A stretch of 64,000 nt of DNA from Marsupella aquatica (taxonomy: Eukaryota > Plantae > Marchantiophyta), in NCBI GenBank assembly GCA_973895155.1, contig OZ316899.1, forward strand, positions 10,691,135 to 10,755,134, written 5' to 3'. The notes beneath the pieces are model-generated. The model was given only the letters and a program-made list of their open reading frames with translations. It was not told where the DNA came from and did not search any database. The translations under genes were made by a program, and so were the position numbers. How positions within the stretch are numbered: position 1 is the first letter of the stretch; every line of letters begins with the position of its first letter. Shown in pieces: positions 17,498 through 63,013 of the stretch.

Positions 17498-17929
17498 ATG
17501 ACTCCCCAAAACTTTACCAAAACTCAGTCAAGAAGGTGTGACTAGCATGACACCAACCACCTTGGAGTTGCTGTTTCATGAAGGTCTCAAAAAGGATGGA
17601 TTTCTTCTAATGGGGTAAAGTAAATTAGGCTGGTCTATATCCTTCTTCTAATTAATGTTTCCCCATAATTGTGGTCATTTGTCTATGCGAAGGGGTGATT
17701 TGTGAAAAAATAATTCTTACATTTTAGAATTGTATGGAAAGTGTCACTATCAATTATACAACTCCTTGCATCATCTAGTGATATGGGTTGGGTTTATGAT
17801 GGATCATATGGATCTCTGGGAGGGCTTCTTCTTGTGTGTACGCTTCCAAGCATTCCTCATTCTCTAGGAATGTTATGTGAGACTCTTGTTTATATCAGCC
17901 TATTCATTAAAAGTGTATTATTATTTGAT

Positions 17930-18260
17930 TTATGTACATTTTGGCAGTGAAAAGTGTACTTTTGGGCTTGGAAAAGTGTACATTTGGCCAATGAAAAGTG
18001 TACATTTGGGGATAGAAAAGTTTACAATTGGCCTAAAGAGTGTACATTTGGGCAATGAAAAGTGTAAATTTGAACATCAAAATAGATACATTTGGCTTTA
18101 AAAGTGTACATTTGAGTACATTTGGCCTAGAAAGTGTACATTTGAGTGCAAAATGCATACATTTGGCTTAACAAGTGTACATTTAAGTGCATTTGGTCTA
18201 GAAAGTGTAACTTTTAGTGCAATAAAGTGTACATTTGGCCTAAAAAGTGTACATTTGCCT
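17930..18260. repeat. Array of the AAGTGTACATTT motif (~22-bp period)
   Basis: About a dozen copies. The same motif recurs in the same orientation at 36565-36680. Confidence 0.85.
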
Positions 18261-18508
18261 ACCAACTCTTATTATAATCATTTAAAAGAAAGGAATGAAT
18301 AGAAAAACATTTTTAATTATGTAGAAAAAGCAAACATTCATATTTATAATGATCAAAAGTTTAGAAAATGAGGAGATAATATCACATTAAAACTATTAGA
18401 ATAGTAAATCACTAGTACATAAATTACTATGTTTGAATGAGTGACTATCTTAGTTACATAAAAACTAGTAACTATCTATTTAATTATTATAGCTTCTAAC
18501 AACTAAGT

Positions 18509-21500
18509 CTACTTGTCCATACTTTGAAGATAATTTTGGACAGTTTGTAGAACATTTCGAGGGATCTTCAAACCTCTGCCCGCCATGTTTTCTTATTTCA
18601 TTCCAGATTTAAAACCATACATTGCAGAATTTGCATACTGCCAATGTTGAGTATTCTCACCAAACCCTGGATCTCGTTCCCATGTCTTAGTGGACATGAA
18701 ACAATTTAGATACCGCGCACTCTCAGTCACATCAAGTTTACTAGAGTGTTTAGGCCTCCACCATTCAACTGGGAACATTGGAGCGTACTGTCGAGGCAGA
18801 GAAGGGTTTGTTGAAGATGTAGTTGGGACTTCATGCTTTGGGTCCACCAAACCCAAAGCTCTCACCAACCAGAAATGACCTCCACCATTTTTATTCTCCC
18901 AGTCATCCTCGGGTCGAAGAAATACAAAGTTTCCTTCACAAATATCTTGTAAAGGAATCCATCGTCCTTGTTCTCTCTCAGCTCGAGATCCAACAAATGG
19001 TGCTGCTTGATCTTCCATCTCTTCCAAGACCTCATTTTGAAGAGCCGTCATCTCTGCATTCTCCTCATCTTCACTTGGAGGACCACTTTGTTCCGGTTGG
19101 TTGACCTTGTAACCAGTGTCGTGGTTAGTCTTAGGCCAAAATCTGTTTTCCAAGGGAAATTGAGTACTTCCCTCCCCTTCTAGTGCGAGCCCATTTGTCA
19201 ACAACTCCACAATTCTCTCCCAATATTTCACAAGAGGAAATCTTTCCTTATATGCTATAGATGTCTCATCAGTGCAACTCCTTCTCAAAAAATCAAGGTA
19301 CTTGTTAAGAAATGGGATAATCTCTTCAGATTTTTTGTGTATCTCTCCAATGGATTTAGCTAAGGGCTCTCCACTTGGTAAAAGAAGAGAATTTGTTGTC
19401 AGATCTGTTGCCCAAATGCACCTTCCACCAACTGGAGCCCAAGCTTGCTTTACATGGGACTTATACTGAAATATTGGTACATTATCTCTCATAGAGAAAA
19501 GAAATGATACAGGTTTTGAGTGACCTTGAATATCTTTCACCTTGAAAGTTTGAAGATATTCTTTGTAAGATGCAACTTCTTGTATCAATCTGGGAACTGG
19601 ATGAATGCTCTCGCATTCCCATACCTCTGCCATAAGAGCAAGGAGGGTTGCAACTTCTTTGTGCTGAACTTGATATGATACCTTTGAAAAGAGTGCATCA
19701 ACATCTTCATGCGTATGACCAACCATTAGAAAAGACATTTGAACAGTTTCAAATACTCCTCTACTCACAAGCTCGCTACAAAATGCCATGACAGTCTGGT
19801 TTTTGTTGTCCTTTGCTGAATTATCCATCTGCAATGTTAGGTGCCTTGGCAAGGGCTTGAACGATGGACTGCCTTGCTCTCCTTGCATGTCTTCTCCATC
19901 ATCCTCATCTTGCTGGTTTGGGACGGTCTCAGTCCGACTCTCAGCTCCATCTTCAGAACCAATATACCTATTCACCGGTATATTCTTTGGTTCCAAATAA
20001 CCCGTCAAAAATGCTTCAAAGTCAAGTAGGGCTTGAAAGAAAGGTCTGTGAGGTTCCCAATGAAGGCCATCCAACATGTCACCTGTCTTGTCTCCATTGT
20101 ACTCTTCAAGGTCTCGAAGACACTTAGCCAAGGATGTCACCGTGAAATTGGCATCTCCTGGCCAAAGGCCAGTGACACTAAAGTGTGCATAAACTCTTGG
20201 ATCCCTCCCGTGGGTCAACATCCCTGTGAGAGCAATAGGTAGCGGCATTCCATGACCCGAAAGAGATTTAGGAGTACTAACCATTTTTGGAATCCATGTC
20301 TTTGCTTGATCCATCTTGTCGTGAATAATGCAAAGATATTCTCCTGGGTGTTGTTTGGCCATCACTCGCTGAGCGTAGTAAACATATCTACGTGACATTT
20401 GCTCACGAAGATGTTGCGCTCGTTTTTCTTCAATTTCAGCACGTTCTTTTTTCCTTCTTTCTCGCATCAAACTGTCTTTGTATTCACAACAAAGAGTACA
20501 CTTGGCAAATGCACCATCTTTATGAAAACTGAAGTTTGCAAATGAGTTACTCCAGATCTTGTAGAGAGTATTCTCTGTGACAGGAGGAAGCCCTTCTTCC
20601 TTCATCTTTGTTCTCACATCTTCCAGAATCTCTAGCTTTTTGTAACACGCCGGAAGACGGTACTCAATAGAGTCTGTCCCATGTGCCCCTCCATAAGGCA
20701 TATGAGGCATGGGCTCTGCATTTTGAGTCAAAAAAGCCTCCAACAGAGCTCGTGCATGCAAGGTATTTGCCCTTGTTTTCATCAAGCCCGTATTGCCATG
20801 GAACCCAATTTTGCAACCCTCCACATATCTCCTTTTGTAATCATAATATTTGGTGTGGCTAAAACTGTGGATAATTGCAAATGCATGTCTGCATACGACC
20901 ATACCCTTAAGAACATGGTGTCCCTTATCACGAACATCATCCTCTCTATAGTGAAAGAGGTTGAAAATGTGTGACGTTTTTGACTCGCTTGACATCCCAT
21001 GAAATTCCATCCTAATATCTTCGATGTTTTCCCTTGGCATAATGAGACAACATTTTTGCTTGCAACAATTTTCTCTTTTCACGTCATCAATTGACGCCTC
21101 TGTTGTTTTTGAAATTGCCTTGGTTTCCAACAACCTCCTCTTCTTTTCATTTGGATCTACTTGATTCCTCTTGTTAAAATTGTAGGGCCTTGAACGCAGT
21201 ACTCCTCTATCACTTACATCCGCATTGAGTTCATCCCTATCCATTGAGTCCATCCTTTCAGAACCTTCCACCAAAATGTCTGACAAAAATTTTCCATTTG
21301 CAACTAGTTTTGTTGAATCAATCCGCCATCGAATCAAACTCACTACTCCCTTGTGGATGTTGGGAAAGTATTGTGCTGCCACGACATCTTTCACAGCAAT
21401 CCCAACATGGTCATCACCAAGAATTTCATCATCAACTGCCGCCGTCACTTGAGGGACAGTGATCGTTCCCGTGGCAACCATTTTGGTTCGATCCAAACCA

Positions 21501-22285
21501 GTGTAGAGTTCAACCAACTCTGACATCCAGTTTGCCCGATGAAAATAGTCACACTTAGTGTCTGTGGTGTTTGCCGAACAAGACTGTGAAACAAAATCCG
21601 CCTTGTCCTTCTGCTTCTTAGAGGAAGATTTGTTGCTCCCATCGATGTCAACATTCCATACTTTATTGTGGACGTCAGCCACATCCCATAGAACCCAGGA
21701 GCCCTTTGCCTCTTCAATTGTTGCAGCTCCACCATGTGCATAAGGTAAAGTCTTACTACCATGAATCGCATCTGTGATTTTTACACTAACCCGAGACTCA
21801 CCGAGTAATATGTTATGACATCTCTCCATTGGATCAGTCTTGAAAACAACTCCAAAGGCCACACAATGGCCAGAGATAAACATTTCAACCTCATCACCTG
21901 GCCTTAGGGTGGTCGAAGCATCCTCCTGTACATTTGCAGAATTATGGATGTTGTTATCTTTTCGAGTCGAACAACTACCAATACTGATGCGTTTTTGAGT
22001 AATCTTATCCGCAGATCGATATGCACATGACATATCCCAAATGACACATGAGTCAATGGCATCATGAAGATTTTCCGCCCTAGGCATTGGAAAAGGGAGC
22101 TTCCTGGTCTCACCAAAGGCCTTCTCAATGAGAACCCCAATTCGATTCTCTCCCAGCACAATATTTTGAACACTCTCTTGCGGATCTGTCTTTTGAACTG
22201 TCCCATTTCCAACGTCGTAACCATCCATTGTCAAGGTCACATCATCGCCCCTAGAAAACCTTTGAGACATCCTTTTCCTATTATC
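18509..22285 (-). CDS. DUF7869 / Sola-like DDD transposase with three N-terminal En/Spm Tnp1 (Transposase_23)-like repeats; main exon
   Basis: 1232-aa ORF with CTLC zinc motif, IIHDKMDQ, LQMDNSAKDNKN and SFLMVGHTHEDVDALFS. Splice acceptor TTTTCAGTGTGCAG at 22286. TAA at 18593 is followed by 27 more open codons to TAG at 18509, so it may be premature. Confidence 0.75.
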
Positions 22286-22335
22286 CTGCACACTGAAAAA
22301 AATGGATTAAAACCAAAGTCATGCAAATTTTGATT

Positions 22336-23125
22336 CAGACTGCGATCCTCAAAGTCTGGATTTGGACTACGATCCTTCAATTCCGGATTTGGACCGGGAC
22401 CATCCAAGTCCGGATTTGGACTACGATCCTCTGATTCTGGATTTGGACTAGGACCATCCGAGTCCGGATTTTGACCGGGACCATCCAAGTCCGGATTTGG
22501 ACTGCAATCCTCCGAGTCTAGATTTGGACTATGATCCTCCGATTATGGATTTGGACTGGGACCATCCGAGTCCGGATTTGGACTGGAATCCTCCGAGTCT
22601 GGATTTGGAGTACGATCCTCCGATTCTGGATTTGGACTGGGACCATCCTAGTCTGGATTTGGACTGGGACCATCCTAGTCCAAAGTTGGACTAGGACCAT
22701 CCCAATCCAAACTTGGACTCGGACCATCCCAATCCAAACTAGGACTTGGACCATCCAAGTCCAAACTTGGACTCGGACCATCCCAATCCAAAGTTGGACT
22801 CGCACCATCCTAATCCAAACTTGGACTCGGACCATCCCAATCCAAAGTTGGACTTGAACCATCCTAATCCAAACTTGGACTCGGACCATCCCAATCCAAA
22901 CTAGGACTTGGACCATCCAAGTCCAAACTTGGACTCGGACCATCCCAATCCAAACTAGGACTTGGACCATCCAAGTTTAAACTTGGACTCGGACCATCCC
23001 AATCCGAACTTGGACTCAGATGATCCTAATCCAAACATGGACTCGGATGATCCCAATCCAAAGTTGGACTCGGATGATCCTAGTCCACATCCGAATCCAA
23101 ACTTGGACTAGGACCATCCTAGACC
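22336..23125. repeat. 30-bp tandem array (~26 units) of a hairpin/palindrome, upstream of (probably intronic to) the transposase exon
   Basis: Core TTGGACTnGGA-CCA-TCCnAnTCCAA, perfect in some units (TTGGACTAGGACCATCCTAG at ~23104). Confidence 0.9.
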
Positions 23126-23799
23126 AACCCATAATGTAACGGGAGATAAACTTCAAACATTTTAAGCTAAGAAAATTCCAAATTTAGGAAGACTCCGTAT
23201 TTTACGGATCTCCCTATATGGTGTAGCCTAAAGTTTGCGTGGTCTTAAGGTAGACCCTAATGTCTACATACAGTTTCATGAAATAATGAAACCTAGCCTT
23301 ATATTTGAATGCATTAACCTTATACTCACCTTAGTATTAAGATCTGGTAGAATATGAATATCACATCCAAGGGGGATACATTGTTGTCTGTAGATTGGTA
23401 AAAACTTTCCCAAAACCCTGAAATACAAGCTATATGCCACTAAATCTTGGGAGTAAAAAACAAACTGAACCCTAAACCACACATGTCTGTAAAAGATAAA
23501 CTGAGAGGACCCCAAAAGTCAAGAAGCTGGCTAAGCTGACCCATTGAAGGTAAGTGGCTCAATACATAACACTTTAAGAGAAACTCCGGATTACATGGAG
23601 CTTAGATTTGGGAAACTAGAACAAGAATGAGCTCCGAAGTGGGCGTCTCCCGAAATATACCCTTTGCTCGAGTCGGCTCAAACGGAAATCGCGTGAAGAT
23701 AAGGGTTGAGTACCCCTTCACCTTAGCTTGCGGCACACCTTATCTTCACGAGCTTAATTGCACGGGGACTACCGTGCAAGGCTGTTAGGTAGGCAGGAC

Positions 23800-24181
23800 A
23801 TCAAGGAAGGAGGCCCGTATGCAGGGTGCGGGCAACGGGCCGTACGCAGGAGCAGGCCGTACGCACTATCAGGCCGTACGTAGGAGAAGGAGGCAACCGG
23901 CCGTACGCAGGCCGGGGTGAGGCAGGAGGGGGTAAAGGGACAAAGAGGTCCAGCCAGGACCTCATTCTCATTCTCACTCTTTCGCTCCTCACTCTGCTCA
24001 CGCTCTCCACTCTCCGCCTCCGCTCTCTACTCTTTGCCTCCACTCGCTCGCTCTCCTCGCTCTTTGCTCTCCGCTCTCTCTCCGCCTCCGCCTGCTTCCG
24101 CCTCCACCTCCATTCTTTTTCATTGCCCTAAATCGGACGCCTGCTAAGAAGCCACGTGTCACTCTGCCACATGTCAGAAAG
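23800..24181. promoter_or_regulatory. Putative divergent promoter region between the transposase and the ParB-MTase-like gene
   Basis: GC-rich block with 4 copies of GGCCGTACG (23838-23907), a CT-rich Y-patch (23960-24120) and a G-box GCCACGTGTC at 24151. Confidence 0.45.
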
Positions 24182-24344
24182 ATGGAAGCGAATCGCGTCC
24201 TTGTGAAGTCCTCCGTGGAAGCAACAGAGGAGTTTGACCTCTCCTCTATGAGCGATAGTGTAGAACTGGCACTTGAAGACTCCAGACAATTTCAATCAAG
24301 AATCCCTAGTAAGTATCCATCACCTATCCTCCCTAAGTCTTAGA

Positions 24345-24685
24345 GGACTGGGACCATCCGAGTCCAAAGTTGGACTCGGATGATCCCAATCCAAACTTGG
24401 ACTCGGACCATCCCAATCCGAACTTGGACTCAGATGATCCTAATCCAAACATGGACTCGGATGATCCCAATCCAAAGTTGGACTCGGATGATCCCAGTCC
24501 AAAGTTGGACTCGGATGATCCCAATCCGAACTTGGACTCAGATGATCCTAATTCAAACGTGGACTCGGATGATCCCAATCCAAACTTGGACTCGGATGAT
24601 CCTAATCCATCCAGGAGATTGAATCTCGATTGTAGGAGCAAGTCTAAAACCATCTCAAGTTGGACTAGGACCATCCTAATCCAAC
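24345..24685. repeat. 30-bp palindrome array in intron 1 (24309-24747)
   Basis: About 10 units of TTGGACTCGGATGATCCCAATCCAAAC, the same family as 22336-23125. Confidence 0.9.
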
Positions 24686-26533
24686 AAGAGTTATTCAAAT
24701 GTTTTAAACTTAATAAGTCTAACATGGATGACGTTTTTATGATGCAGGGAGCGATCTTGTTGGTTTCAAACCCGCGATTGCACCGACCGACTGCCGGGAC
24801 GGATTCTTACTAGATGAGAGATCCCCAGGCTTCCGATGGGGGCTTGAGTTCTCAAGAACCCCGCTTAATAATGAAGTGCCATCAAGCACGATTGAACCTA
24901 TTTTGACCTTAAAGTCCAGAGCAAATGATAGCCTGACTTTGGTTTGCGGACCTGTGGTCTCTGTTGGCATTGGAGGGAGAGGGATGAATTCGGTCATTCT
25001 GGAGATGCACGATAGGCCATGCTGGGTTAAAGTTAACCTTATGTCAAAGGCATACTCCTCAGAATTCAATGTCGAATGGCACGCAAGTGGTGAATTGAGC
25101 GTTTTGTCAATGGGATTTTTTCCAAAGACATATGACACAAAGAAGTTGGTCATCGGGGTAACTGGTATGCTTCCAGTCGACATTATGTATGGGTTTCAAT
25201 ATTTGAAACTCAACATGATGAAGCACCAAGGCAATTTCTCTTTTGCAACTACTTGGACGTTAAGCAATTTACTTGAGAAAGTTGGATTGTTATCGTTGGA
25301 GTCAGAGGAGCCTGGTGTTTTAATTGATAAGGATGTTGCATTTGATCCCAACTTTGATTTAGTCAAAGCAAAGCAATGGATAGAATCTTTGTCAAAGACG
25401 AGAAACCTTCCAACGGTGAATACAAACCCTGTGCCCGAGAAGGCGCCAGAGAAAGCTCCAGAACCTACAACAGAGACCGCGGGAACTACAGCAGCAACCT
25501 CTCAAAGAGCAGTGGGAAAACAAAAACAAAGCCAAAGGAAACCTCCGGTTGAAAAGAAACTTCCAGTTGAGAAGCCGGTTGAGAAGCCGAGTACGAGAAG
25601 CCGAGTTCAGAAGCCAGTTGAGAAGCCGAGTACGAGAAGCCAAGTTGAGAAGCCAGTTGAGAAGAAACGTCCGGTTGAGAAGCCAAGTGCAAGTGAAAAG
25701 AGGCCAAGACAAAAGAAGAAACAGAAAATTGACAATGCCATCATGGATGACACTACAGAAAACCTGACAGTGCATTCACAAGATATGGACGAGCAGTTGG
25801 ACGCTCCTGAGGAGAAGAAGGTCTTAGAAGGTAATGAGGTACTGCAACAAATGGAGCAATATTATACGTTTGGGATCAATTCGATATTTTCTATTCCCGT
25901 AGAGAGTATTTTCCCTGCGTCGGCAAGACTCTGTTACAGAATGTTGAATGCAGACCATGTAAAGGAGGTGGCCAATTCCATGATAAGAAATCCGGGGCAT
26001 GAACCACACATAGCAGACTTGATTCCTTACACTACAAAACATAGAAACCTAATGCAATATGACAACACGGAATCAGATAGGAGGGACTTTGTAGCAGCCG
26101 TGAAAAAGGGGGAGGTTCAATTCCTTGCCATTAGCGGTCAACATTCGGCCAGAGCAGCCAGATGGATTCGAGAATGGGCAAACAAGGATGCCAAGCTAAC
26201 AGCATTGGCAAAAAAGCTGGAATTTCGAAAGTCAAGAATATTATCTCATCGAACACCATCGTCAATATTAGTTGAGCATTCAATGCGATCTAATGCTATC
26301 AATAGCACGATGGTGTTTCAGTCATGCTTCAAAGATACAGTCGTTCATGCTAGGCGGCAATTTGTGGAATGTGGAAAACCTAGCCGGCCAAAACATGGGG
26401 ACAACAAAACAAACGCTCAAGACAATCAAAAATTTCAGGTACGAAGTGTTACTGCTTGATTGGTACAATACCGTAGACTCTCCATGTGTGATTACAATTG
26501 AGATGGTAGTCTTTGACCACAAAGCTTCAAGTT

Positions 26534-26880
26534 TGCTTTGGATTGAGATGGTCCGAGTCCAAATGGATACATTCACATTCAGTAGAATATTTCCACTGAT
26601 ATCGTCTAGTTTTGTGTTGGACTGGGATGGTCCCAGTCTAAATGGATTCATGCACATTCAATAGACTATTTCCACTGATATTGTCTAGTTTTGTGTTGGA
26701 CTGGGATGGTCCCAGTCCAAATGGATTCATGCACATTCAGTAGAATATTTCTCCACTGATACCGTCTAGTTTTGTTTTGGATTGGGATGGTCCTAGTCCA
26801 AACTAAATCATGCACATTCAATATAATATTTCCACTGATACTGTCTAGTTCTGTGTTGGACTGGGATGGTCTGAGTCCGC
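26534..26880. repeat. ~80-bp tandem repeat (4-5 units) in intron 2, each unit carrying the same palindrome in reverse orientation
   Basis: TTGGACTGGGATGGTCCCAGTCCAA core. CCACTGAT anchors at 26593, 26672, 26753 and 26832. Confidence 0.9.
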
Positions 26881-29532
26881 ACCTGAGTGCTTTCAAACAA
26901 TTGAGTTATGGAGAACTAACAGACTTTCCTTTGCAATTGTAGGATTGGTTGGCTCTTGCAAGAATGACCATGGGAAGGAAAGATTGTCGTAATGTCTACT
27001 GGTTACTATTTGCCGACAATGCTCTTTTTGATTTATGGAGTTTGGTATGCCAATTGTGGTTGGATGGGAAACTTCCCGATGGAGCTGGTGTAGAAGGAAA
27101 TGAGAAGTCTGAAAAAGCAATTACTGTTGCCATGTTTCGTTGTTTTGATGGTGAGTTGATCTCACAACGAGACATCACAAGAATACTGACGCGGGTGAAG
27201 TCAGGAAAGGTATTGCTAAAGAAAGATGCCTCTAATAAATCAGACATGCCATCTATAGAGGAGTTGGCCAAAGATGTGAAGATCGTGCGGAAACTCAAGT
27301 CCCTTATTGAAGACTACTATTGCACCAAGGATGCGGTGAATTTCCCGACAAATACTAATTGGGGGAAAGTAGTTGAGGTTCTTCCTACGCTAGCAATTGA
27401 TTCAGAGTTCACCAGGTGTCGAAGAGCCGCTGGCGAGGTCTATCTTGCCAACCTTTTAAAGCCAAATCATACGCGGGAGAGCGCAATCTTGCCGACGGCA
27501 TTGGTATTCCGCCTAGATGATATATACTGCCAGAGATTTGGCGGAGGATCACGTTCTCGGACCCTACCATGGGTTACATTTTTTAGCGACAATCTCATGA
27601 AGACCATTGATCCAGAGTCATTGCAAGAAGCTCCTCCGACCTGCCCTCTTGCCATTGTTGATTTTAGCCGGCTTCCGCAAAAATAGTGGACTGAAGCAGA
27701 GATTCTTGTTCTCTTTGAATACATTGTGGAGCTTCCACAAAATCCCACGATTGTGGTGACGATAACAGTTCATCCTGGACAACTTGCACTGAATGTCCAT
27801 GGTGCCCTTCGTAAATTGGGACAAGAGAAAGCTTTGACCATTCACATTGAGTATGGGAGTTATTCCCGAGATGATCAACCGCACCCTCATGACTCATGTT
27901 GGGGTGGAGGGATTGAAGAAGTTATCTTTGCAGGGATTTCTCGAGATGAAGACGTCAATTGGAATGAAGTTTTCAAGCCCAACTATCCAAAGCCAAAATT
28001 CTTGTATACTTCAAAGGATGTTGATTATGAAGTATGAAAGATCGACAAGGGAAAGGGGAAAGCTAAGGAATCAGATGAGGGGACACAAAACGACGACCTA
28101 AAAGTGGTTTTGGACCCGGAAGAGGCCGTCAAGATTATGAATATGGCCCCTCGATTTGAGACAGTTGGTAGTCGCGGAGGATGGGTTAATCCTCATGCCA
28201 AACCCACGCGGATGATCCGAAGAATTATTGAATCCTTATCAGAACCGGGAGATTTGGTTCTAGATTTTTTCTCCGGTGGCCAAGTCATGAAGACATCATT
28301 TTTTTGCGATAGGGAATGCTTTGTTTATTGTGACTCTCAGTCCGAGAGGCATTTTGTGGAAGCTTTTGCTTCCTACCTTTGCGAGAGAGTTCCCTCACTT
28401 AAAGCCCATTGTGAATCACTTGCTGAAAATTCTTGACAATGGGCTACCACTATTGCGGCTGTAGCTGTCGCTGTTGAATCCGACGGTTCTGAGTCTGAAG
28501 ATGTTGCTGACAAAGTGGCTAAAGGCGTAGAGGCATCAGAGGAGGCATATGTCAAGAATTTGGATGACCGTGTTGGTCAAGGTGAGCCTTACGATGTAGA
28601 TGATGATATTGGACTTGCACCAAACCGTTCATCTGGTTTAGATGACATCCCTCCGGGGCCCAATGAAGTTCAAGTTGATGATAACTTGGACAAGGATGAT
28701 CCCAATCCAACAACGCCGGGAGGACAGATGGAGCAACTGGAAGGAGCAAGGGTTGATATGTTTGATCATCTTTCTTCAACCAATCTGATCAACGAAGGCG
28801 CAACGAGGCTTGGAGATTCAAATGAAGCTGAAACTAACGAATTGACTCGTGGGGAAGCCGGCGGATTGCCTGACATTCCCATCAATCCAGGAGGAAATGC
28901 ATCAACGGCTGCTGACAACCAGGCAGGTGCTTCAACTTGTCCTGACACACTCTTTTCAGCTTCTGATGACAAATTGGTGTTCGTTCGTTCACACTCGAGG
29001 AGTCCTGTTGTCCTTCCGTTCTCAAAAAAGAAAGGGAATAGAGTTGGATCAACTGGATGGAGGTCATTGGAACGCGACGCACGATGTTACGTGTGGAAAA
29101 GTGGGCCAAATCGAGGCCAAGAAATATCATTGGAAGCTGCTCCTTCAATTCTCAATAAGGAGGAGTATAAGAGGGGAGAATTGGGGTTCATAACTCCTGT
29201 TTGGACTTCTCCTTATTGGGTAGAACAAAGTACTTCAGATGTCAATTTTGAAATCCAACAGGAGCTTGGTGCTGACATGATTATTGATGAATACGGATCT
29301 CTTATTTCGGAATGAAATTCAGCCTTTGACTTTCTATTTATTCATATCAATCTAAAATACTTCTCGGTCTCACAGAATGGGCTCACCAATTAAAGTCTCC
29401 ATATCCGTCTACACATTGTGAGGCTTCTAAAAACGGTATGTAGGTTAATTTTCGTTTTTGTCAGCCATTGTGTTGTATTTTTGGACTGAGACAATCCTAA
29501 TCCAAAGTTCACTTTTGGTCTTTTCTCTGAGA

Positions 29533-30566
29533 ATGGTGTTTGGTGCACTTGCAGAATCGAGACCTGGTCCCGTCAAGCGGAAGTTGTTGATTTTGGACCT
29601 TAATAAAATACTTTGGGATTCTATTGAATTCCAAAGCAAGGGCACATCCAGGAATATTGTCACCTCAAGTGGAGTGCATTGGGATAGAAAAAATGGTATT
29701 AGTCGCATGTATACAGAACGACCAGGGCTCCATGAGTTTCTAAAGTTGGTTTTTGACAGATTTGACGTTGCAATTTGGACTTGTGCTGGGGTAGAACGAA
29801 CAGTGAAAATGCTGAACATGATGTTCACTGTTGAGGAGCGGTTGAAACTTAAGTTTGTATTCACACAGGTGGAAGCCTTTGACACAGGCATTCAAAGGCG
29901 TGACATTACAAACGGAAAGGCAAATGTGCTACTGAAGGATTTTCAGGTGGTATGGAATGCATTTGGAAATCTATATGATGAAACCAACACCCTCCTTGTC
30001 GATGACTCCCCCCTTAAGGCATTTGCCAACCCAGACATGACTGGATTATTTCCAGTGCCCTACACGCATGCCAATCGTGGAGATAATTTTCTTCTAGCAA
30101 TTCTTTGGCCATGTCTTGAGAAACTATCACATGCAAGTGACATTCGATGTTATCTTCTTCTCAACTCTCCAAAGTGGTCTCTTTTGCACATGAAGAGAGA
30201 CAAGGCAAAAAATGAGATTACTTATGATCAACTTAGCAAGAGATTTGCAGCAAAAATTTGGAAGTCACAGTTTACACATAGTGTGTTGGACCTCAACAGT
30301 AATGAGATCCCTTGGAACGTCCTGAGGTGGAACTTGACAATGCACTTGTCAACTCACTTGCTAAATCATTTTTAGGAAAGGACTATTCAGGTCCATATAG
30401 AGAAAATCCCAGACACTTTTTGCGGGGGATTATAGCCATTAGGAACAACACCACCAGATTTCAACTCCTTGAAAATAAAGGGAGTTGCAACCGTGACAAT
30501 AGGGTAGATAGGAAAGGAGACAGGGGCACATGCTCAAATACACATTGTAGGGAGCACTTGGTTTAG
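29533..30566 (+). CDS. FCP1/SCP (NIF) HAD phosphatase-like protein, probable frameshift near 30320
   Basis: Motifs RKLLILDLNKIL, RPGLHEFL..VFDRFDVAIWT and NTLLVDDSPLKAFANP. The C-terminus appears to continue in the 30312-30566 frame. Confidence 0.75.
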
Positions 30567-30651
30567 ATATTTAATTGACTTGTGTTAAGCCCCTTGGATA
30601 GTACTAGAAATATGTTCGTATTCAATGTAAATTTGCAGATAATTGTATAAA

Positions 30652-33600
30652 TGTTATAACCCATAATATGACTTAACCCTAGTATAGGATAGGTTAACAT
30701 TAACCCAACCATGTTAACCCTTCTGGACTATATAAGTCCTTGGCATAATGGAAGTGAGTGGGGATTATTGACTACTATCATCTTGTGTATTCATAACACG
30801 TTATCAGCGCGACTTGCTCAATTACATTTTTTTTACATGTGCTCCCTCCCCAAAATCTGACAACTCAATAGATCGAGGTCCACACAAAGAAAACAACACA
30901 ATGTTGTGTGTTTTTTGCTCCAATGGCGAGAATAACCGCCTAACTACCTCCCGAGAATAGAGAAAACAAGCTTATGATCGAAGAACAAAGAACTGGCCAT
31001 AGAGCGTCGAGCCTAATCACGAGCGAAGATTCTCAACCTTGAACGAAGGAGACAACGCGACGAGACGCAAAAAACAAAATAAAAGACATTGGCGAAAACT
31101 GAAAACTTTGAGGACCGCACACAAGGACATACGAACGAACTCCATCGGGGACAATTTGGATGCGATTCAAGGGGCAGATGAGTCCCGTGCCTTGAGCGAA
31201 AGGATCGCTATCGTTTCTCTTTCTTTTGGTTAACTTGATCCATCACAACAGCCGATCAATCGGGCGGGACAAGGCGAAAGTCATAGGCATTTGATACAAA
31301 GGAACACCATATATTTATAAGGCCCAAAATCAGGCGAAATAGACATGGCGACATTGGAGAAGTTACATTTCCCAGCCCTACTAGTAGACGGCAGCAACTA
31401 CTTGACATGGGCCGTAGATGCGGAAACATACTTCGCATCGTTGGAGCTTGAAGATACATTAATCACAGACCAAAATCTGACTCTACAACAGAAGGCCAAG
31501 GCCGTGTTCCTTTTGCGCCAGCACTTGGTTCCCTCACTAAAATCCCAATACATGAACGAAGTCAATCCACGACTCCTGTGGGACAAGTTAAAGGCCCGAT
31601 TCGACCATATGCGCGAAATATGGCTTCCTGAGGCTCGCCGCGATTGGTACAACCTACGAGTGATGGATCATACTTCCATTGCTAACTACAACAGCGCTCT
31701 ATTTAAAATTACCTCTCAACTAGAACTCTGCGGCCATCCAGTCCCAGACGCAGATAAGATCGACAAGACACTGAGTACATTCCCCGAATCAAACATTGCA
31801 CTCGGTACACAGTACCGAAATATGCAATTCACCACATATTCAGATCTTATCGCACATTTACTTGTAGAAGAGAAGCAACAGGTGGTCGCCATGCAAAACG
31901 CCCAAAAAAGACCTGCGGGAACAGAACCACCACCACACAAACCAGAGATAAATTACTATCAGCGAGATAACATGGGACGAGGCCGACCAAGAGGCAGAGG
32001 CGGATACCAAGGCAGAGGTAGAAACCAATCCTACAGAGGTCGAGGATATCGACAATCATACAACACAAGAGGCAGGGGAGTAGGCGGCAGAGGCAGGATG
32101 AGTGATAATGCATCGGACAACACCAAAGATGATAGGATGTGCTACCGATGCGGAAAAATAGGACACCTGAAGAAAAATTGTTGGGCATCGGACCAAACAG
32201 CCAGGAAACATACAGAATCAAGAGCTAGACTCAAACAAAACCCAGCAGGGAACTACATGGAGCTAGAAGAAGCAATAGCCACCTACAAAGACCCCGAACA
32301 ACCTCATGAAGTGGAGACCCACATAGTAACTCCAGCAAGAGGACCCTACACACTACAAGACCCCAATCTGGGCATAATTGACAGCGGTATGTCTCATACA
32401 ATACTAAAGGACAAGAAATATTTCCACTCAATTACCCCATCAGCCCGGCATATGACCACCATTTCAGGCACAAACCAGATTGAGGAGGGTAAAGGCACAG
32501 CCACGGTAATATTCCCAGGAGGCACTGCACTCGCCATCGAAGCAGCGATATTTGCCCCGCGAGCTACAAGGAACCTCATCAGCTTCCGAGACATAGTCGC
32601 AAATAAATATCAACTGCGCACAGTGAAAACAGACGAGGAAGATACCCTCCAAATCGTGGAGGTTACCGAACAAGGTATACATATTAAAGAAACCTTACCC
32701 CTTATACCACCAGGCCTCTACGCAACTTAAATTCAAGCTCACTATGTCACTGCAGACTTACCTGATATCACATACTTATGGCACTGTCGACTGGGACACC
32801 CCGGAGTAAATATGTACCGCAGAATTATTCATGACTCCCGTGGAATCCCCCAAGGAGTCAACCCATCAACAAAACAAAGGCAATGCCTGGCGTGCTCTCA
32901 GGGGAAGCTGATTACACGCCCACAAATACAGAAGACAATCTATGCCATCCCGAACTTCCTGGAACACCTGAACGCAGATGTATGCGGCCCGATCCACCCA
33001 CCAAGTGGACCGTTTAAGTATTTCCTGGCCATCATCGACTCTTCGACCAAATGGCTGCAAGTATCTCTACTCTCTACACGCAACTTGGTCTTCGCTAGGA
33101 TACTGGCCAACATTCTAAAGCTTAAAGCACAATTCCCAGAACATCCAATTCGGAAACTGAGAGTGGATGGTGCAGGGGAATTCACCTCAAAAGCATTCGA
33201 TGAGTTTTGCTGGGCAGCGGGCATTGACACTGAATACTCAGTCCCATATGTCCATTTCCAAAACGGAATGGCAGAATCCGTTATCAAGCGTATACAGATG
33301 ATAACCAGACCCCTGTTAATGAATTCAAAGTTACCCCTATCCACATGGGGACACGCAGTCCTCCATGCTGCCACACTGCTTCAATACAGACCATCGGCGT
33401 TCAACACAAAGACTCCACACCACTTAGCGTTCGGACTACCTCCAGACCTGTCACACCTGCGGGTATTTGGATGCAAAGTCATGGTCCCAATACTGGGACC
33501 CAAGCGTACAAAAATCGGACCTCAAAGACAAGAAGGAATCTACATCGGAAATGACTCATCCTCGATCATTCGCTACCTGGAACCGACAACAGCCGATGTG

Positions 33601-36392
33601 TTTAAGGCCAGACATACAGATTGTCATTTTTACGAAGACACTTTTCCCACCCTAAGCATAGACAAACAAATGACAGGGGACTTGCACCCACACAAGATCA
33701 ACTGGAACAGCAGAAACTTACTCAACCAGGACCCGAGGACGAAACAAACGGATGCAGAAGTTAGACGATTACTCCACCTCCACGAGATGCTGGATAAGAT
33801 CCCAGATGCATTTAATGATGCAACAAATGTTACAAAATCCCACAACGAGGCAACCAATGTACCAGCCAGAGTACAAATGAATACTCCTCCAGCAACAGTA
33901 GCTGCCCCTAAGGCGAAAAGAGGTAGGCCACCAGGATCACATGATACCCGACCCCGCCAAAGACGCCCCCATCAGGTAATTCCTGAAACTACTTTTCACT
34001 TCATTAATAATGAATCCGAGACACCAGACATATCGGGTAATGAGGAGATGTCAATTCAGTATAAGCATACAGGACAAATTTACACGAGACAAAACACTAC
34101 TGTCGACGAACAATTTGCTTACCATATAGCTCAAGAAATAACCAATGATACTTCGGACCCTTTAACAATCAAAGAAGCACAAACAAGGTCAGATTGGCCA
34201 CACTGGAAAGAGGCCATTGACACAGAAATGGATGCACTAATCCATCGACAAGTCTTCGGACCAGTCAAACAAGTTGATCCTAACAATGACTATACAGACA
34301 GCCGATTTACGTTCATTAAAAAGCGAAATGCAAAAGGTGATGTTATCAGATACAGAGCGCGGTTAGTAGCAAAAGGATACACCCAGATCCCAGGCAGGGA
34401 CTATGATCTAACATATTCACCAGTAATGGACGTGACGACATTCAGGTATTTAATTGCTTTCTCTCGCAAACACCAGTTATGCAATATCCTTATGGACGTA
34501 GTAATGGCATACCTATATGGAGTCTTAGACTCCGAAATTCATATGAAAGCACCAAAGGAATTACTCGAAAGAGTGGCAGAACACATTCAGGGGAAGCAAT
34601 ACCCGAACCTGAGCAAGGATATGAAGTCGGGAATTGACCAGATTATCCCTAATGATGATTGTAAAGGCCTTGTGTTGAGCAGTGGCAACACACAGAAAGC
34701 ACCACTCCAGTACCCCGGAAAACGAAGGACTGGACAGCAGGCATTTGCTGTGCAAGTATTGAAATCCATAAACGGCCTGAAACAAAGCGGCCGTATATGG
34801 TACCAGAAATTTAAAACCGAAATACAAGCACTCGGATTTATTACAGAAGACATAGCGCCCTGTATATTCATCAAAAGAGTAGACACAGAGTTCGTCGTGT
34901 TAGCGCTATATGTCGATGACATTAATCTCTTCGGTACACAACGACTATTACGACAAACAATCAACACAATGAAGGGCATTTTCGAGATGAAAGAACTGGG
35001 AGAACCGACTTACTGCCTCGGCCTTCAGTTCGATCACCTACAGACAGGCACATTCATTAGCCAGTCTACCTATACAAACAAAATCCTCCAACAATTCAAT
35101 ATGCAAAAGGCATACCCGGTATCAACACCAATGGAGCTGGGATCCTTAGACACTGCGAAGGACATGTTCAGGCAAAGACAGGACAACGAACCAATACTAG
35201 ATTCAGATAAGCCATACTTATCGGCTATCGGAGCCCTCCTTTACCTGGCCAACAACACCCGACAATACGCCACTGGAACGGCATAAAACGAGTATTCCGA
35301 TACCTCCAAGGAACAATTGACATGGGACTATTCTTCCCCAACGAAAGCGAGGATGAACTTACAGGATACGCGGACGCTGGATACCTCTCAGACCCCCAAG
35401 ATTCAAAGTCGCAGACAGGATACGTCTTCTTGCAGGGTAAAACCGCCATATCTTGGAGAAGCACGAAGCAGAGCCTAACCACAACGTCATCGAATCACGC
35501 CGAAGTAATTGCCCTCTATGAGGCATGCCGCGAAGCGATTTGGCTCCGTAGTATAATCACACATATACTCAAACAGACAGGAAAAACCTTACTCACAAAT
35601 CCAACCACCATCTACGAGGACAATAGGGCATGCGTCGACCAGATAGTTACAGGCTACATGAAGACCGATCGAACCAAGCACATAGACCCGAAATTTTTCT
35701 TTACGCATGAACACAGCGGAAAGCAAATACAAGTAAAGTGGATAAGCTCACAAGACAATTGCGCCGACCTCTTCACCAAGCCGCTACCAGCGACTACACA
35801 TCGAAAGCACGTCAGCGCCATTGGAATGCATCGTCTCTCCTCCCTAACCTCCTCGACTAACGACAACTCCCGACACGAACACACAGCCAACGCAAAATCG
35901 AAGTAGAACCTCGACAAACTACTAAATCATAGTATCTAACGAACAGTTTACAGAGAGACACATGTTCCCCCGTCATGAATACAATACTACCCCGACTAGA
36001 GTAACAAATAAACGCTTACTTACTCTTAGCCCACTGGCTTAGACAGTAATAGGCTACTTTTAGACTTAGAGCATACACATTAGAGACTTTCTGAATTAGG
36101 GACCACAAATTGTAATGATGGTAGTACTCTTCCTTGAGAGGAAAGCAGCAAGGTTTGATGAGGCTACATCATAAGTGACTCCCACTTTTAAACTAGGGTT
36201 AAATGTGTGGTTCCTTGACACCCCGTCCAAGTAACCAAGGGGAAGTGTTATAACCCATAATATGACTTAACCCTAGTATAGGATAGGTTAACATTAACCC
36301 AACCATGTTAACCCTTCTGGACTATATAAGTCCTTGGCATAATGGAAGTGAGTGGGGATTATTGACTACTATCATCTTGTGTATTCATAACA
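30652..36392 (+). mobile_element. Ty1/copia LTR retrotransposon, Bianca lineage, full length
   Basis: Identical 147-bp LTRs (30652-30798, 36246-36392), TSD ATAAA, Bianca-type PBS CGTTATCAGC and PPT AAGGGGAAG. Confidence 0.95.
31345..35906 (+). pseudogene. Copia gag-pol polyprotein (gag, CCHC, PR, IN, RT, RNase H), disrupted
   Basis: Motifs CYRCGKIGH, IIDSG, WHCRLGHPG, ADVCGP, YVDD and YADA. In-frame TAA at 32728 and a frameshifting deletion near 35260. Confidence 0.92.
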
Positions 36393-36564
36393 ATAAAGAT
36401 ATTTTATAATCTATTTGGAATGATGTTATTTTGTTCACAGAATATCTGGTCCTTAAATGGGGATGAAATAACTTTATAAGTTTTTATCCTCCATTTCTAT
36501 GTGAGTTATTAAATAATATAATATGTATTATTTATTAATATAATATTAATGTGATTTGGCCTAT

Positions 36565-36680
36565 AAAGTGTACATTTAGAGACACAAAAGTGTACATTTG
36601 GGTGTCTTGAAGTGTACATTTGGGGCCATGAAAGTGTACATTTCAAGACTCATTTGTGAACAAAAGAAAGTACACTTTTA
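36565..36680. repeat. Second AAGTGTACATTT array
   Basis: 4-5 copies of the motif found at 17930-18260. Confidence 0.8.
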
Positions 36681-38401
36681 ATGAATAGGTTGATTTATTT
36701 GTATTCTTAGTTCTTCTATCAAGGTCACTAAATGTGAGGATATTTTACATAACTTTTGTGGGTGACCCTTAGTGCCACACGTAAAGCATTCTATTGTATT
36801 GGAGTTCTTATCTTCTTGTTGCTTTTCTTCACTTTGTGTTTGGTTGCCCCCTTTTGTGTATATGGGTTTTCCATCTCGTCTCCGTCCTCCTCTGTTGGGC
36901 CTGAAATTGGTCCTGCCACCCGCACATCCTCTACCTCTCCCCCTGAAACCTTGGTATCTGTCTCCTCTAGAAGATGTCCCTCCTCTAGAAGATTGTCCTC
37001 CTCTGTTTTTATTAGGGCCTATGCATGGGGTCCATTTATTATTGGTAGGCATTCCAAAATTAGCCTTAGTATTGGGGACTGGGGGCAAAGTCCCTGGGGG
37101 GCGGGTTTTTGCATTCTTAGATTATGGTTGTTTATGCTTTTCAGCCAACAACATATGGGCTATCAACTCAGAATACTTTGTAAATTTCATATTTCTATAT
37201 TGGGCGGCAAGGATCATGTTAGTAGGGTGGACGGTGGATTTCAGTTTGTTCCTCATCAGCTACAGGTTGCCCGTAAAGGGCTAATTGGGATGTTATCCTA
37301 AATAGTTCACTATTATAGTTGGCAATAGATGTGTGGTTTTGCACCCTCAAGTTAATCCAATCATGCTTTGCCTTTTGGAGGTGGATTGTCTTTTTGTGGT
37401 CATATCTGTCCTTCAAGTGCTCCCAAAGGATTCTTGGGTTATATTCATTTAATCATTGAATCTTGAGGGGGCCTCCTAAGTGGTGCCTCAGTAAGACTAA
37501 GGCCTGTGCTTTTTGTTGGAGTGTTGGACCAGCGTCTGTGATAATAGTATCTTGTAGGCCTGTGGATGCCAAATGGGCCTCCGCATCTAGAGACAAGGAG
37601 AGATCATTTTCTCCATCAATGGTGAGTGCCTGGAAATTCATCCATACTATTCATTTTGTAGAGTGAGGTTAACAATTGAAGTGCAAATTTTCTTTTGTAT
37701 TTCTAAAGAATTTTTTTGACTGTGTAAGCAATTGCACTTATCGAGAAAATTCCTTGGGACTTTGGTCGATTGTCACTCCAGTGGACTTTCTCTTTTTAAT
37801 CGACTGCTTTTGCAAATTGATTTGCTTATGTCTCTTGTCCGGCCGATTCCTTCCTTCTCCTGCGGAATTTCTTATCTCATTTTTCCTTTCTCCTGTAGGA
37901 TTGATTTCTTTCCCTAAATCGTTCCTCTCTCCGATTTCCTCCGATCTCTTTGATTTCTCTTTTTGTTCTTAGCTTCGATTTTGCTTTCTTTTCTCTCTGA
38001 TTTGATAGTTAGAAAGTGCATTGTCCAATTGCCTTAGGTTTTTCTCTCTGTTTTCAGAAATTACCACATGAAGATTCATCAATTCCTGTCCAGTAATCGC
38101 CTTCTGCAATCAAGTTCTCCTCAGCTACCCCTTCTCTTTAAATTTTGTTCATCAATGTGCTACGTTTATTTGATTTTATTTTTGGTTTTGGTGAGTCAAA
38201 GTGATGATATCGTGTTGGAATTCAAGGAAGCCATAGCTAGTTAGGATACAAGAGATACAAAGTAGAATCTCCAATTGACATGGATTCAACCGCTCTCCTT
38301 GTATTATATATGTTATGGAACAAAGATAACCTGATCTTAACCAGAGTTAGACTAACCCTAGGTCAGATTCCTAACGTAGCTTTAATACTTGTATCATAAC
38401 A
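36678..38401 (-). mobile_element. Truncated Bianca-type copia remnant (5' LTR 38213-38401, PBS, degraded gag)
   Basis: The gag fragments NFQALTIDGEN..., DWINLRVQNHTSIANYNSELFRITSQL and CFTCGTKGH are homologous to the 31345 gag. The minus-strand LTR reads TGTT...AACA and is followed by CGATATCATCAC. Confidence 0.8.
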
Positions 38402-39548
38402 TATTCTAAATTATTTTGGCAACTCTATATATGTTTTTAATCTTGCTATCCCTGAACTCTCCTTTCTCTCCTTTCCCACATGATTTAAACTTCAATACAA
38501 TCCATCCAAGCACTTTAGCAAATTTTGTGGAATTCTGCCAATGAAAAAAGCACCTCGTCTTGTGAATGTAACACAAATATGAAACACTAATGATACCTTG
38601 AAATGTGTACATCTCCTATTTTAAGTTATTTTCATTCTTTTTAATCTTAGGTTCATGGTTTTAATTGTCATTACCTAAGGCAAGTGAGTATTACCTATCC
38701 CTCAAGAGGTACACAATTGTCATTACCAGAGGCAAGTGAGTATTACCTGTACAGCTTTTTACTACAGTACCCCCCAAACTGAACATTATTACAATCTTGC
38801 CCCCCAAACTAAACTATTTACTATACTGCCCCCCAAACCGTATACCGATGCTTCTAACCAGACTTCTCGACCATGGAAGCGATCCTATTGGCTATCACGT
38901 AACTGCAGTCGACCACCCTTGGTCACACTAACCCGCGAGATCAGTCATTTACGCAGCCTGCACCCAGCCGCGGCGCGCCTAAGGCGTCTGATACCTATCG
39001 GGGCCCATTTGGACCCGGCTCCCACCAAACTGGGGCCGATGCTGCCCCTTCCTCCTACCAGGCCCAAGTAAATGCCACCCATTTGGACCCGACACCCATT
39101 CAGCATCGACGCTGTATTGGGCCCCGACTCCCAGGAGTCATTTTCTTCAGAAAAAAGGGCATTGGGGCATCCTGTGCATGTGAGGCATTTTGATTGTCAA
39201 TCCTCAAAAGAGAAGGATGTGCAGGGAAGGAATCCGGGTGCAAAGCAAAGGAGCAAGGGATCGGGGCAAAAAGGTTGAAGGGCGAACGGATCTCGTGAAG
39301 TAACGCAGCCAATGGAGTCATAGTTAAGAAGTCATTTTAAGTGTGTGGTTGATACTCAATGTGATGCCCCATTTTCTGATAGGGCTGTCGATAGGAACCG
39401 GTCCGGTAAATAAAGGAAGGCAACCCTCACATTCACAGGTGTGAAGCTCAAACCACTACTCTATGCTTCTTGAAATCTGATTCTGATTGAAAGTTTTGTA
39501 TTGCTTGCAATTTGAGTCTGCAATTTTTGTGTCTGCAGGCTATTTTCA

Positions 39549-41584: not shown

Positions 41585-41828
41585 ACAGGCTTGTGTAGAG
41601 TAATTTAGTTGTCAATGTTATTAGTTTTTTTAGTCACCTGTTGAGAATACTTTTCAAACAGATGACAAGACAATTGAATTTACACTTCGAATCAGAGAAA
41701 TAGGATGTGTGTGCATTGAATGAGAAACATTTAGTATTCCAAAATGGGCCACTTTGGGCTACAATGAGAGACGTGCACCACAAGTGCAATGCTGGCACAA
41801 TTCACAGCCTGCCTATCTAATTCTGACA

Positions 41829-62466: not shown

Positions 62467-63013
62467 GTCTGTTCATCTTTTTTGGTAGTTCGATTCCTTT
62501 GGACCTTATGTACCCAGTTGGAACCTCTCACGCTCACTTCGAAAGCCAAGTAACCTTGTGTGGAAATGTACCTGTAGTTCTTTTATTTGATTATACCCAG
62601 TCAGATGAGCATTTCACCATAATTATCTCTTCTTTGTCAAGATTTCATTTGAACCTTACTTGTTCCTAGGGAAATTGATATCTGACCACAAGTGGATCTG
62701 ATGTTTTTAGATCGTAGCAGTTGACCCCAAGGGTTTGTCCTTAACGCAGTTACCAGGCAGATGCTCTTGTGTTGGTCTGATTCAGAGTTGAGAATGCAGC
62801 AGGTCAAAACTGGTGCAAATTTATGGATCAAAGGATACCAGGTTTGGAGTCGAGGCAATTCGAGGGCTCTTACACTCCAAGGTGTTGAGGAATTACCGGA
62901 TGCTGAGAAGGTTACCATGGGCCCAAAGGTGTAGAAGACAGCTGCTTAATGTAATTATTGTCCACCCCTCATAAAATTATGTCTTGGTGTGTCGTAGGTG
63001 CGTGACATCCTTG

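What the first reader, a model, noticed from the sequence alone, without database searches (positions are those of the whole stretch)
24182..29315. Hidden 1397-codon ParB-like + N4C/N6A methyltransferase-like gene reconstructed from five ORF-track fragments and a short first exon
Seen: GT-AG introns 24309-24747 (phase 1) and 26439-26942 (phase 0), both with CTAAC branch points, join the exons exactly in frame. Exon 3 is a single frame broken only by three stops, each one C->T away from CAG/CGA. The segment NPHAKP..IRRIIESLSEPGDLVLDFFSGG matches the motif X/I SAM-binding end of N6_N4_Mtase. Caveat: the expected catalytic (D/S)PP(Y/F) position reads LAIVDFSR, and the ParB GxxR patch reads SGQHS. 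The protein may therefore be a catalytically altered DNA binder or reader rather than a writer.
Basis: partly seen in the sequence, partly recalled or inferred. Interest (0 to 1): 0.85.

Follow-up and report, generated by a model that had tools for sequence, protein, structure and literature searches.

The report
Plant transposon's disarmed methylase-like cargo gene
This is a broken copy of a spliced gene carried inside a plant jumping gene; its protein is predicted to fold like bacterial DNA methylases but lacks their usual catalytic motif, and it likely binds a palindrome repeated through its own transposon to regulate it rather than methylating DNA.

Summary
The spliced gene is real. The exons join in frame (1397 codons, three internal stops), homologs cross intron 2 at the same residue, and other copies are open at all three stops. 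This copy is a pseudogene. The element has an intact DUF7869 (Sola-like) transposase frame on the opposite strand, a NIF/FCP1-like frame and a Copia insertion. Exon 3 is predicted to fold as a beta-class amino-methyltransferase (Z 15.9 to CcrM). None of 56 family sequences covering motif IV has (D/N/S)PP(Y/F/W); 52 keep the Asp. The SAM loop is one residue short. The ParB label is plausible but my tests did not confirm it. A 25-bp palindrome occurs 35 times, only inside the element: between the two genes, in both introns, and in two candidate introns that could splice the NIF frame onto the gene. The layout is published for the brown-algal Sola1-1_Ec32. The land-plant version, the family-wide remodelled active site and the palindrome map were not found in my searches. 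Best reading: a self-binding regulator with a pseudo-methyltransferase domain. Interest 0.5.

The parts
17896..36692 (.). DNA transposon, 18,797 bp (about 13.06 kb without the Copia insertion)
   Evidence: 22-bp terminal inverted repeats with 1 mismatch; flanks ATAT | ATTT; contigs of 4 public runs cover it far deeper than a flank contig
17896..17917 (+). left terminal inverted repeat
36671..36692 (-). right terminal inverted repeat
17933..18261 (.). left subterminal repeats (AAAGTGTACATTT core, shared with the inner end of the terminal repeat); likely transposase sites
   Evidence: 12 of 20 window matches here, 5 at the right end; chance mean 2.1
36565..36643 (.). right subterminal repeats
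18593..22306 (-). uninterrupted 1237-codon transposase-like frame, DUF7869 (Sola-like)
   Evidence: Pfam PF25273 E 4.6e-44; translation; the Sola link of this domain is recalled, not tested
22338..23127 (.). 27-bp tandem array of the 25-bp palindrome between the two divergent genes
24182..24308 (+). exon 1 (inferred from frame and splice consensus only)
24309..24747 (+). intron 1, holds a palindrome array (24343-24684)
24748..26438 (+). exon 2: N-terminal beta-rich domain, lysine-rich linker, ParB/DndB-like domain (about 25860-26300)
   Evidence: DndB E 0.031 on homolog P0012 only
26133..26147 (+). SGQHS patch (position of the ParB GxxR / DndB DGQHR motif; reference motifs recalled)
   Evidence: invariant in 8 of 8 rows; ISGAH and ISRQH variants in distant relatives
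26439..26942 (+). intron 2, holds a 79-bp-period array whose 25-bp core is the same palindrome (26538-26880)
26943..29315 (+). exon 3: helical domain, methyltransferase-fold domain, acidic linker, small C-terminal domain; premature stops at 27684, 28035, 28434
27558..28409 (+). beta-class amino-methyltransferase fold (predicted)
   Evidence: VIA Z 15.9, rmsd 4.3, 209 aligned to CcrM; Foldseek E 1.1e-7 to M.MboIIA
27660..27671 (+). DFSR at the motif IV slot
   Evidence: end of predicted strand 236-240; family tally
28263..28286 (+). DFFSGGQV, motif I with a one-residue deletion
   Evidence: alignments to M.RsrI and phage methylases
28582..29375 (+). candidate alternative intron (AAG|GTGAGC donor, phase 1); contains a solitary palindrome at 28686
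   Evidence: inferred, no RNA evidence; no CTRAY found in its last 76 nt
29376..29435 (+). candidate 60-nt mini-exon
   Evidence: the only 1 of 4 AG..GT pairs in 29316-29500 that keeps the frame open into the NIF frame
29436..29554 (+). candidate intron (GTATGT..TGCAG, CTAAT at 29497); contains a solitary palindrome at 29481
29555..30375 (+). NIF/FCP1-like HAD phosphatase-fold frame (DLNKIL at the first motif)
   Evidence: Pfam NIF E 1.7e-15; fused to the methyltransferase-like domain in relatives P0064, P0121, P0143
30652..36392 (+). Copia-type LTR retrotransposon inserted into the element (147-bp identical LTRs, ATAAA duplicated); not part of the system
   Evidence: joint 30646->36393 in contigs of 3 of 4 runs shows copies without it

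Best explanation
This is a pseudogenised copy of the accessory gene of a multi-copy Sola-like plant DNA transposon; intact copies likely make a protein that binds the 25-bp palindrome of its own element and regulates the element, with a predicted methyltransferase fold that likely no longer transfers methyl groups. Shown: gene structure, element boundaries, palindrome map, open frames in other copies, family-wide motif changes. Predicted: the beta-class fold. Inferred: a dimer recognises the two-armed site through the ParB-like and helical domains; the methyltransferase-fold domain holds or flips a base, or blocks host 5mC enzymes; binding in the divergent promoter and introns keeps the transposase and the gene itself expressible, as VANC does for VANDAL elements; the NIF-fold part, co-spliced or fused, may engage the RNA polymerase II tail.
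For: Element. Palindrome: 35 matches, all in 22444-29504, chance mean 0.01; they fall in five places, and the 79-bp and 27-bp arrays share only the 25-bp core (the 54-nt spacer has no good match elsewhere in the window); 7-11 of 11 arm pairs are complementary at the 24 sites scored. Fold. Motif IV slot: Asp in 52 of 56 rows, basic residue at +3 in 50 of 56, (D/N/S)PP(Y/F/W) in 0 of 56, against D-x-P-Y in 11 of 11 phage methylases. SAM loop one residue short. Protein under constraint: 21 synonymous to 16 non-synonymous among listed variants, p about 1e-4; 248 relatives at E<=0.001. SGQH-type patch and methyltransferase motifs in one polypeptide in P0083, P0105, P0128, P0166, P0163, P0135. Precedent for layout and for inverted-repeat arrays: PMC12477816 and bioRxiv 2025.02.11.637652 (passages); for VANC tandem-repeat targets: PMC5735166 (abstract).
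Against: No binding, expression or activity data exist. The ParB assignment failed my direct tests: no Pfam ParB hit, weak DndB hit on 1 of 8 exon-2-type proteins, low-confidence model, no significant match to P1 ParB, N15 SopB or YbdM. The retained Asp and the strongly conserved DFFSGG loop fit a still-active, atypical enzyme equally well. Profile-profile alignment did not place motif IV; the placement rests on the predicted strand order, from an 8-sequence alignment. Tandem copies are not independent, so the palindrome count is really five sites; within intron 2 the core is hardly more conserved than the spacer (0.90 vs 0.86). The palindromes could be transposase sites. Family rows include near-duplicates and fragments that may themselves be pseudogenes.
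Confidence: 0.5

Rival explanations
1. Active, atypical amino-methyltransferase: the protein binds its palindromes and writes 4mC or 6mA on its own element, using Asp plus a basic residue in place of DPPY, which shields the element from host 5mC silencing.
For: Complete beta-class fold predicted; Asp kept in 52 of 56 rows; motif X/I is the best-conserved part of the protein; the first Pro of DPPY is already replaced in 6 of 11 phage enzymes; this is the role proposed for the algal proteins (PMC12477816 passage); 4mC exists in a liverwort (bioRxiv 2021.02.12.428880, passages).
Against: The Pro-aromatic pair, invariant in 11 of 11 references, is absent in 56 of 56; the SAM loop is one residue short; the acidic residue after the next strand is variable (D, E, G, C, A and others in the rows); four rows have lost the Asp too.
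Confidence: 0.25
2. Transposition accessory: the protein loads on the internal palindromes like ParB on parS and compacts or pairs the element for the transposase, with no epigenetic role.
For: Two-armed sites in tandem arrays; ParB-like motif pattern; the element is long.
Against: The palindromes cluster in the promoter region and introns, not at the ends, where a different repeat sits; the GxxR arginine is absent; the NIF-fold partner points to transcription.
Confidence: 0.17
3. Passive passenger: a captured bacterial-type gene decaying in all copies, with satellite repeats that mean nothing.
For: This copy has three stops and a Copia insertion nearby; many relatives are fragments.
Against: Other copies are open at all three stops; synonymous excess; uninterrupted homologs at 28-41% identity keep the same motifs and C-terminus; introns have been gained and intron 2 is conserved.
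Confidence: 0.08

Closest known systems
Sola1-1_Ec32 of Ectocarpus (PMC12477816; passages, outline and a term search of 5 supplementary files; two FASTA supplements and one table unreadable)
   Same: Large Sola-type element with a gene on the strand opposite the transposase that encodes ParB-like plus N4C/N6A methyltransferase domains; 4-bp target duplication
   Different: Here a land plant; 1396 rather than 1104 residues; motif IV and SAM loop remodelled across the family (the passage read does not discuss motifs); mapped palindromes; NIF-fold partner. I could not compare the two proteins.
Plavaka accessory genes PAG2 and PAG3 of red algae (bioRxiv 2025.02.11.637652; passages)
   Same: Transposon cargo with PF01555 methylase (PAG2) and ParB-like domain (PAG3); tandem inverted-repeat arrays next to the ParB-like gene, proposed as self-binding sites
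   Different: EnSpm-type transposase; domains on separate genes and fused to SET or 2OG-oxygenase domains
Beta-class DNA amino-methyltransferases (CcrM, M.MboIIA, M.RsrI, M.PvuII, rotifer N4CMT)
   Same: Predicted fold and permuted motif order, Z 13.7-15.9
   Different: No (D/N/S)PP(Y/F/W); SAM loop shorter; 10-18% identity
Marchantia DN4MT1a/b (bioRxiv 2021.02.12.428880; passages)
   Same: Bacterial-type beta-class methyltransferase in a non-seed plant
   Different: DN4MT1 has TSPPY and is a host sperm enzyme; 'ParB' does not occur in that text; this gene is transposon cargo without SPPY
VANC of Arabidopsis VANDAL transposons (PMC5735166; abstract and outline)
   Same: Works-like comparison: transposon-encoded protein whose targets form tandem repeats in non-coding parts of its own element
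   Different: No homology tested or implied; VANC activity is proven, this one is not

Membership tests
Beta-class N4C/N6A DNA methyltransferases | Permuted Rossmann-type fold with motif IV region before motifs X and I | tested here: met
   Predicted model; VIA Z 15.9 (CcrM), 15.1 (MboIIA), 14.6 (RsrI), next unrelated fold 5.5; Foldseek E 1.1e-7
Beta-class N4C/N6A DNA methyltransferases | Motif IV (D/N/S)PP(Y/F/W) | tested here: not met
   DFSR here; 0 of 56 family rows, Asp kept in 52; slot placed by predicted strand order, not by profile alignment
Beta-class N4C/N6A DNA methyltransferases | Motif I F-x-G-x-G SAM loop | tested here: not met
   DFFSGGQV, one residue shorter than M.RsrI and phage references; commonest forms among 70 rows: DFFSGGQV 19, DFFSGGVF 8, DIFSGGVV 6
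Beta-class N4C/N6A DNA methyltransferases | Motif X (P-x-x-K-P) before motif I | tested here: met
   NPHAKP; Pfam PF01555 positions 163-191, E 3e-7
Beta-class N4C/N6A DNA methyltransferases | SAM-dependent methyl transfer to DNA | not testable with these tools
   needs an assay
ParB/Srx/DndB superfamily | ParB N-terminal fold or profile match | tested here: inconclusive
   DndB E 0.031 on P0012 only; pLDDT mostly under 55 in this region; P1 ParB, N15 SopB, YbdM not significant among 94 ORFs
ParB/Srx/DndB superfamily | GxxR (GxRR / DGQHR) nucleotide-binding patch (motif recalled) | tested here: not met
   SGQHS in 8 of 8 rows; SGAHS and SRQHS in distant relatives; no arginine
ParB/Srx/DndB superfamily | CTP binding and binding to palindromic sites | not testable with these tools
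   candidate sites mapped
Sola1 DNA transposons | Terminal inverted repeats | tested here: met
   22 bp, 1 mismatch
Sola1 DNA transposons | 4-bp AWWT target duplication (PMC3845634 passage) | tested here: inconclusive
   flanks ATAT and ATTT both fit AWWT but differ at one base; a 2-bp AT duplication fits too
Sola1 DNA transposons | Transposase homologous to reference Sola1 proteins | not tested
   DUF7869 hit only; no Sola1 reference sequence was available; the link is recalled; 'DUF7869' found in 0 papers
4mC writers DN4MT1 / N4CMT | SPPY catalytic motif | tested here: not met
   TSPPY cited from bioRxiv 2021.02.12.428880 passage
FCP1/SCP HAD phosphatases | DxDx(T/V) catalytic motif (recalled) | tested here: not met
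   DLNKIL in the window, DVEGLL in fused relative P0143; Pfam NIF match holds

The most novel reading that the evidence does not exclude
Land-plant Sola-like transposons encode a self-targeting epigenetic machine: one transcript, alternatively spliced, makes a palindrome-binding protein whose methyltransferase uses a new Asp-x-x-Arg/His active site to write 4mC or 6mA on the element, plus an isoform fused to an RNA polymerase II tail phosphatase fold, together forming a second, bacterial-derived anti-silencing system in plants beside VANC.
Probability: 0.2. Interest if true: 0.85.

Novelty: new variant of a known kind. Interest (0 to 1): 0.5.

Why it matters
[quoted passage not shown] This locus supplies what a test needs: an element with defined ends, an exact candidate binding site, open-frame copies, and a family alignment showing that the active site was remodelled, not just decayed. 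Either outcome is useful. A pseudo-methylase would be a new way for a plant transposon to control its own silencing. An active enzyme would define a new amino-methyltransferase chemistry and a second source of 4mC or 6mA in plants.

Tried and rejected
No whole genome is held for this window, so intact paralogs could not be read directly. No RNA holder was listed among 6 runs, so splice junctions were not checked against transcripts. No relatives in viral contigs for either half; one partial, stop-containing relative in metagenome contigs (L001), found by the motif I pattern and so not independent for that motif. A search for fused forms of 565-2000 residues returned only P0003; fusions appeared later. 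tblastn of the ParB-like part against phages and plasmids gave nothing useful; NCBIfam and PHROGs gave no ParB family; PDB sequence searches with A2 and A5 gave no ParB hit. Fold searches of the exon-2 model tested mainly the N-terminal domain: PH-like folds at Z 6.8 or less and DNMT1 RFTS at Foldseek E 0.14, neither significant. The homodimer prediction gave no answer. The protein atlas was never reachable. Global hhalign put DPPY elsewhere at low confidence; I rejected that placement because the structure match covers 206-489 in one piece. I rejected APPT (residues 231-234 of P0001) as the motif IV remnant because no strand is predicted before it and it is less conserved than the Asp. The bacterial promoter scan is irrelevant to a plant. 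Two transposon classification papers asked for by recalled id were not held. Literature searches for a land-plant report; none listed one, but subscription journals, the Iyer 2011 review cited by the Ectocarpus paper, the published version of the Marchantia paper and Repbase were not seen, and the Ectocarpus FASTA and bioRxiv supplements could bear on novelty.
Full report
Observation. Homologs support intron 2. Two Calypogeia fissa gene models read across it at the same residues, and single-exon calls end just after the donor. Exon 1 rests on frame and consensus. Conserved sequence starts before the first internal Met of exon 2, so an upstream exon is needed, and only one donor and one acceptor fit. 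Contigs of public runs that hold the element read T>C at 27684 and 28434 and A>C at 28037. This copy is therefore a recent pseudogene of an open frame, and the middle stop came from TGC, not from CGA. Among the 40 variants listed (5 more were not shown; share filter 45%), 21 are synonymous, 16 non-synonymous and 3 open the stops. About 27% synonymous is expected, p about 1e-4. Several rows come from one divergent contig, so this is a rough sign of constraint.

Context. The host is a land plant: a GAGA-binding (BPC) gene lies at 44469-45398. The only named homologs are from the liverwort Calypogeia fissa at 45-63% identity, so a bryophyte is likely but not shown. The gene sits inside an element bounded by 22-bp inverted repeats at 17896 and 36692, flanked by ATAT and ATTT, with a 13-bp subterminal repeat at both ends. 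On the opposite strand is an uninterrupted 1237-codon DUF7869 frame (E 4.6e-44), which I take to be a Sola-type transposase; that link is recalled and was not tested against references. Downstream is a NIF/FCP1-like frame and then a Copia element with identical LTRs and a 5-bp duplication, absent from other copies. In run X1 a flank contig has depth 18 and contigs over the gene 380-455. This suggests roughly twenty copies, although the tool warns that such depths are not copy numbers.

The methyltransferase part. Sequence searches see only motifs X and I. The model built from 8 sequences matches beta-class enzymes over residues 206-489 of exon 3: CcrM Z 15.9, M.MboIIA 15.1, M.RsrI 14.6, rotifer N4CMT 13.9, M.PvuII 13.7, then MT-A70 proteins, with unrelated folds at 5.5 or less; Foldseek agrees. 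The strand LAIVD ends at the motif IV position. A profile search of 1.84 billion representatives found 248 relatives at E<=0.001, of which 150 were returned. Of 170 proteins held, 56 rows cover this slot, including the window and a few near-duplicates. Asp is present in 52, a basic residue three places later in 50 (R 38, H 8, K 4), and the canonical motif in none. Eleven phage references all have D-x-P-Y. Motif I is one residue shorter than in M.RsrI and the phage set, yet it is the best-conserved stretch. The active site was remodelled early and then held under selection. That fits a pseudo-enzyme that still binds a ligand or base; it does not exclude an unusual active enzyme.

The ParB part. 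The pattern (I-P-V-E, R, ISGQHS, R-I-L) resembles ParB/DndB motifs as I recall them, and one homolog hits DndB weakly (E 0.031). My direct tests were not significant. The label stays a working name. The same patch and the methyltransferase motifs do occur in single polypeptides among relatives, so the fusion itself is supported. The N-terminal domain folds with fair confidence but has only weak PH-like or RFTS-like matches.

The tandem repeats between the two genes, in intron 1 and in intron 2 are built on one 25-bp palindrome, TTGGAYTNGGA-NNN-TCCNARTCCAA. There are 35 matches at up to 2 mismatches, all between 22444 and 29504, against 0.01 expected. The 27-bp and 79-bp arrays share only this core. 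Two solitary copies lie at 28686 and 29481. Both fall inside candidate introns: a phase-1 donor at 28582 (or the exon 1 donor), a 60-nt mini-exon at 29376-29435 and an acceptor at 29554 give an open frame into the NIF domain. Three relatives carry the methyltransferase-like and NIF domains in one frame. The splicing is inferred; the fusion in relatives is seen in predicted proteins.

Mechanism. Most likely (0.5) the protein docks on its palindromes and regulates its own element, the methylase fold acting without catalysis, in the manner of VANC on VANDAL tandem repeats (PMC5735166, abstract). An active atypical 4mC/6mA writer (0.25), a structural role in transposition (0.17) and a passive passenger (0.08) are the rivals. 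No step beyond anatomy and conservation is shown.

Known or new. [quoted passage not shown] Red-algal Plavaka elements have inverted-repeat arrays beside a ParB-like gene. Iyer et al. (PMC4738411, passages) describe ParB-linked and transposon-borne inactive methylases in other groups. My six searches on this point listed no land-plant report and no description of the DFxR site. Earlier notes of this scan describe similar plant and animal elements; they are unchecked and not independent support, but they show the arrangement recurs. Verdict: real, a new variant of a known kind, not a member of the active beta-class methylases by the motif test, interest 0.5.

Noticed in passing
window 24783-25400 (exon 2, residues 12-218): Confidently folded N-terminal domain of no assigned family; best matches are PH/PTB-like folds (Z 6.8 or less) and DNMT1 RFTS-containing chains in 6 of the top 10 Foldseek rows (E 0.14-0.67, not significant). 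A histone-reader role would fit an anti-silencing protein.
   Followed up: partly
window 28144, run X1 (loose ends): A contig runs from the cargo gene into a sequence matching the element's left terminal repeat, suggesting that one copy of the element has inserted into another copy's gene.
   Followed up: no
window 30652-36392: Copia-type element with identical 147-bp LTRs and a short internal duplication or insertion near 35256-35263 relative to contigs; its depth in X1 is also far above the flank.
   Followed up: partly
window 38752-43027: Mutator-like element: about 270-bp inverted ends (I9 and I19) around a MULE transposase fragment at 39751-40626.
   Followed up: no
window 44469-45398 (-): Intact-looking host gene of the GAGA-binding / BASIC PENTACYSTEINE family (Pfam E 1.6e-70).
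   Followed up: no
window 5039-7243 and 52085-54302; 2-1455, 11098-12479 and 63011-64000: Long inverted copies at 96-99% and 83-98% identity, probably other repeat families in opposite orientation.
   Followed up: no
proteins P0064, P0121, P0143: A distant subfamily (DLTH at the motif IV slot, DFFSGGVF at motif I) carries a C-terminal NIF-fold domain in the same frame.
   Followed up: partly
L002-L012: Six of 11 annotated phage beta-class methylases have DLPY or DIPY instead of DPPY.
   Followed up: no
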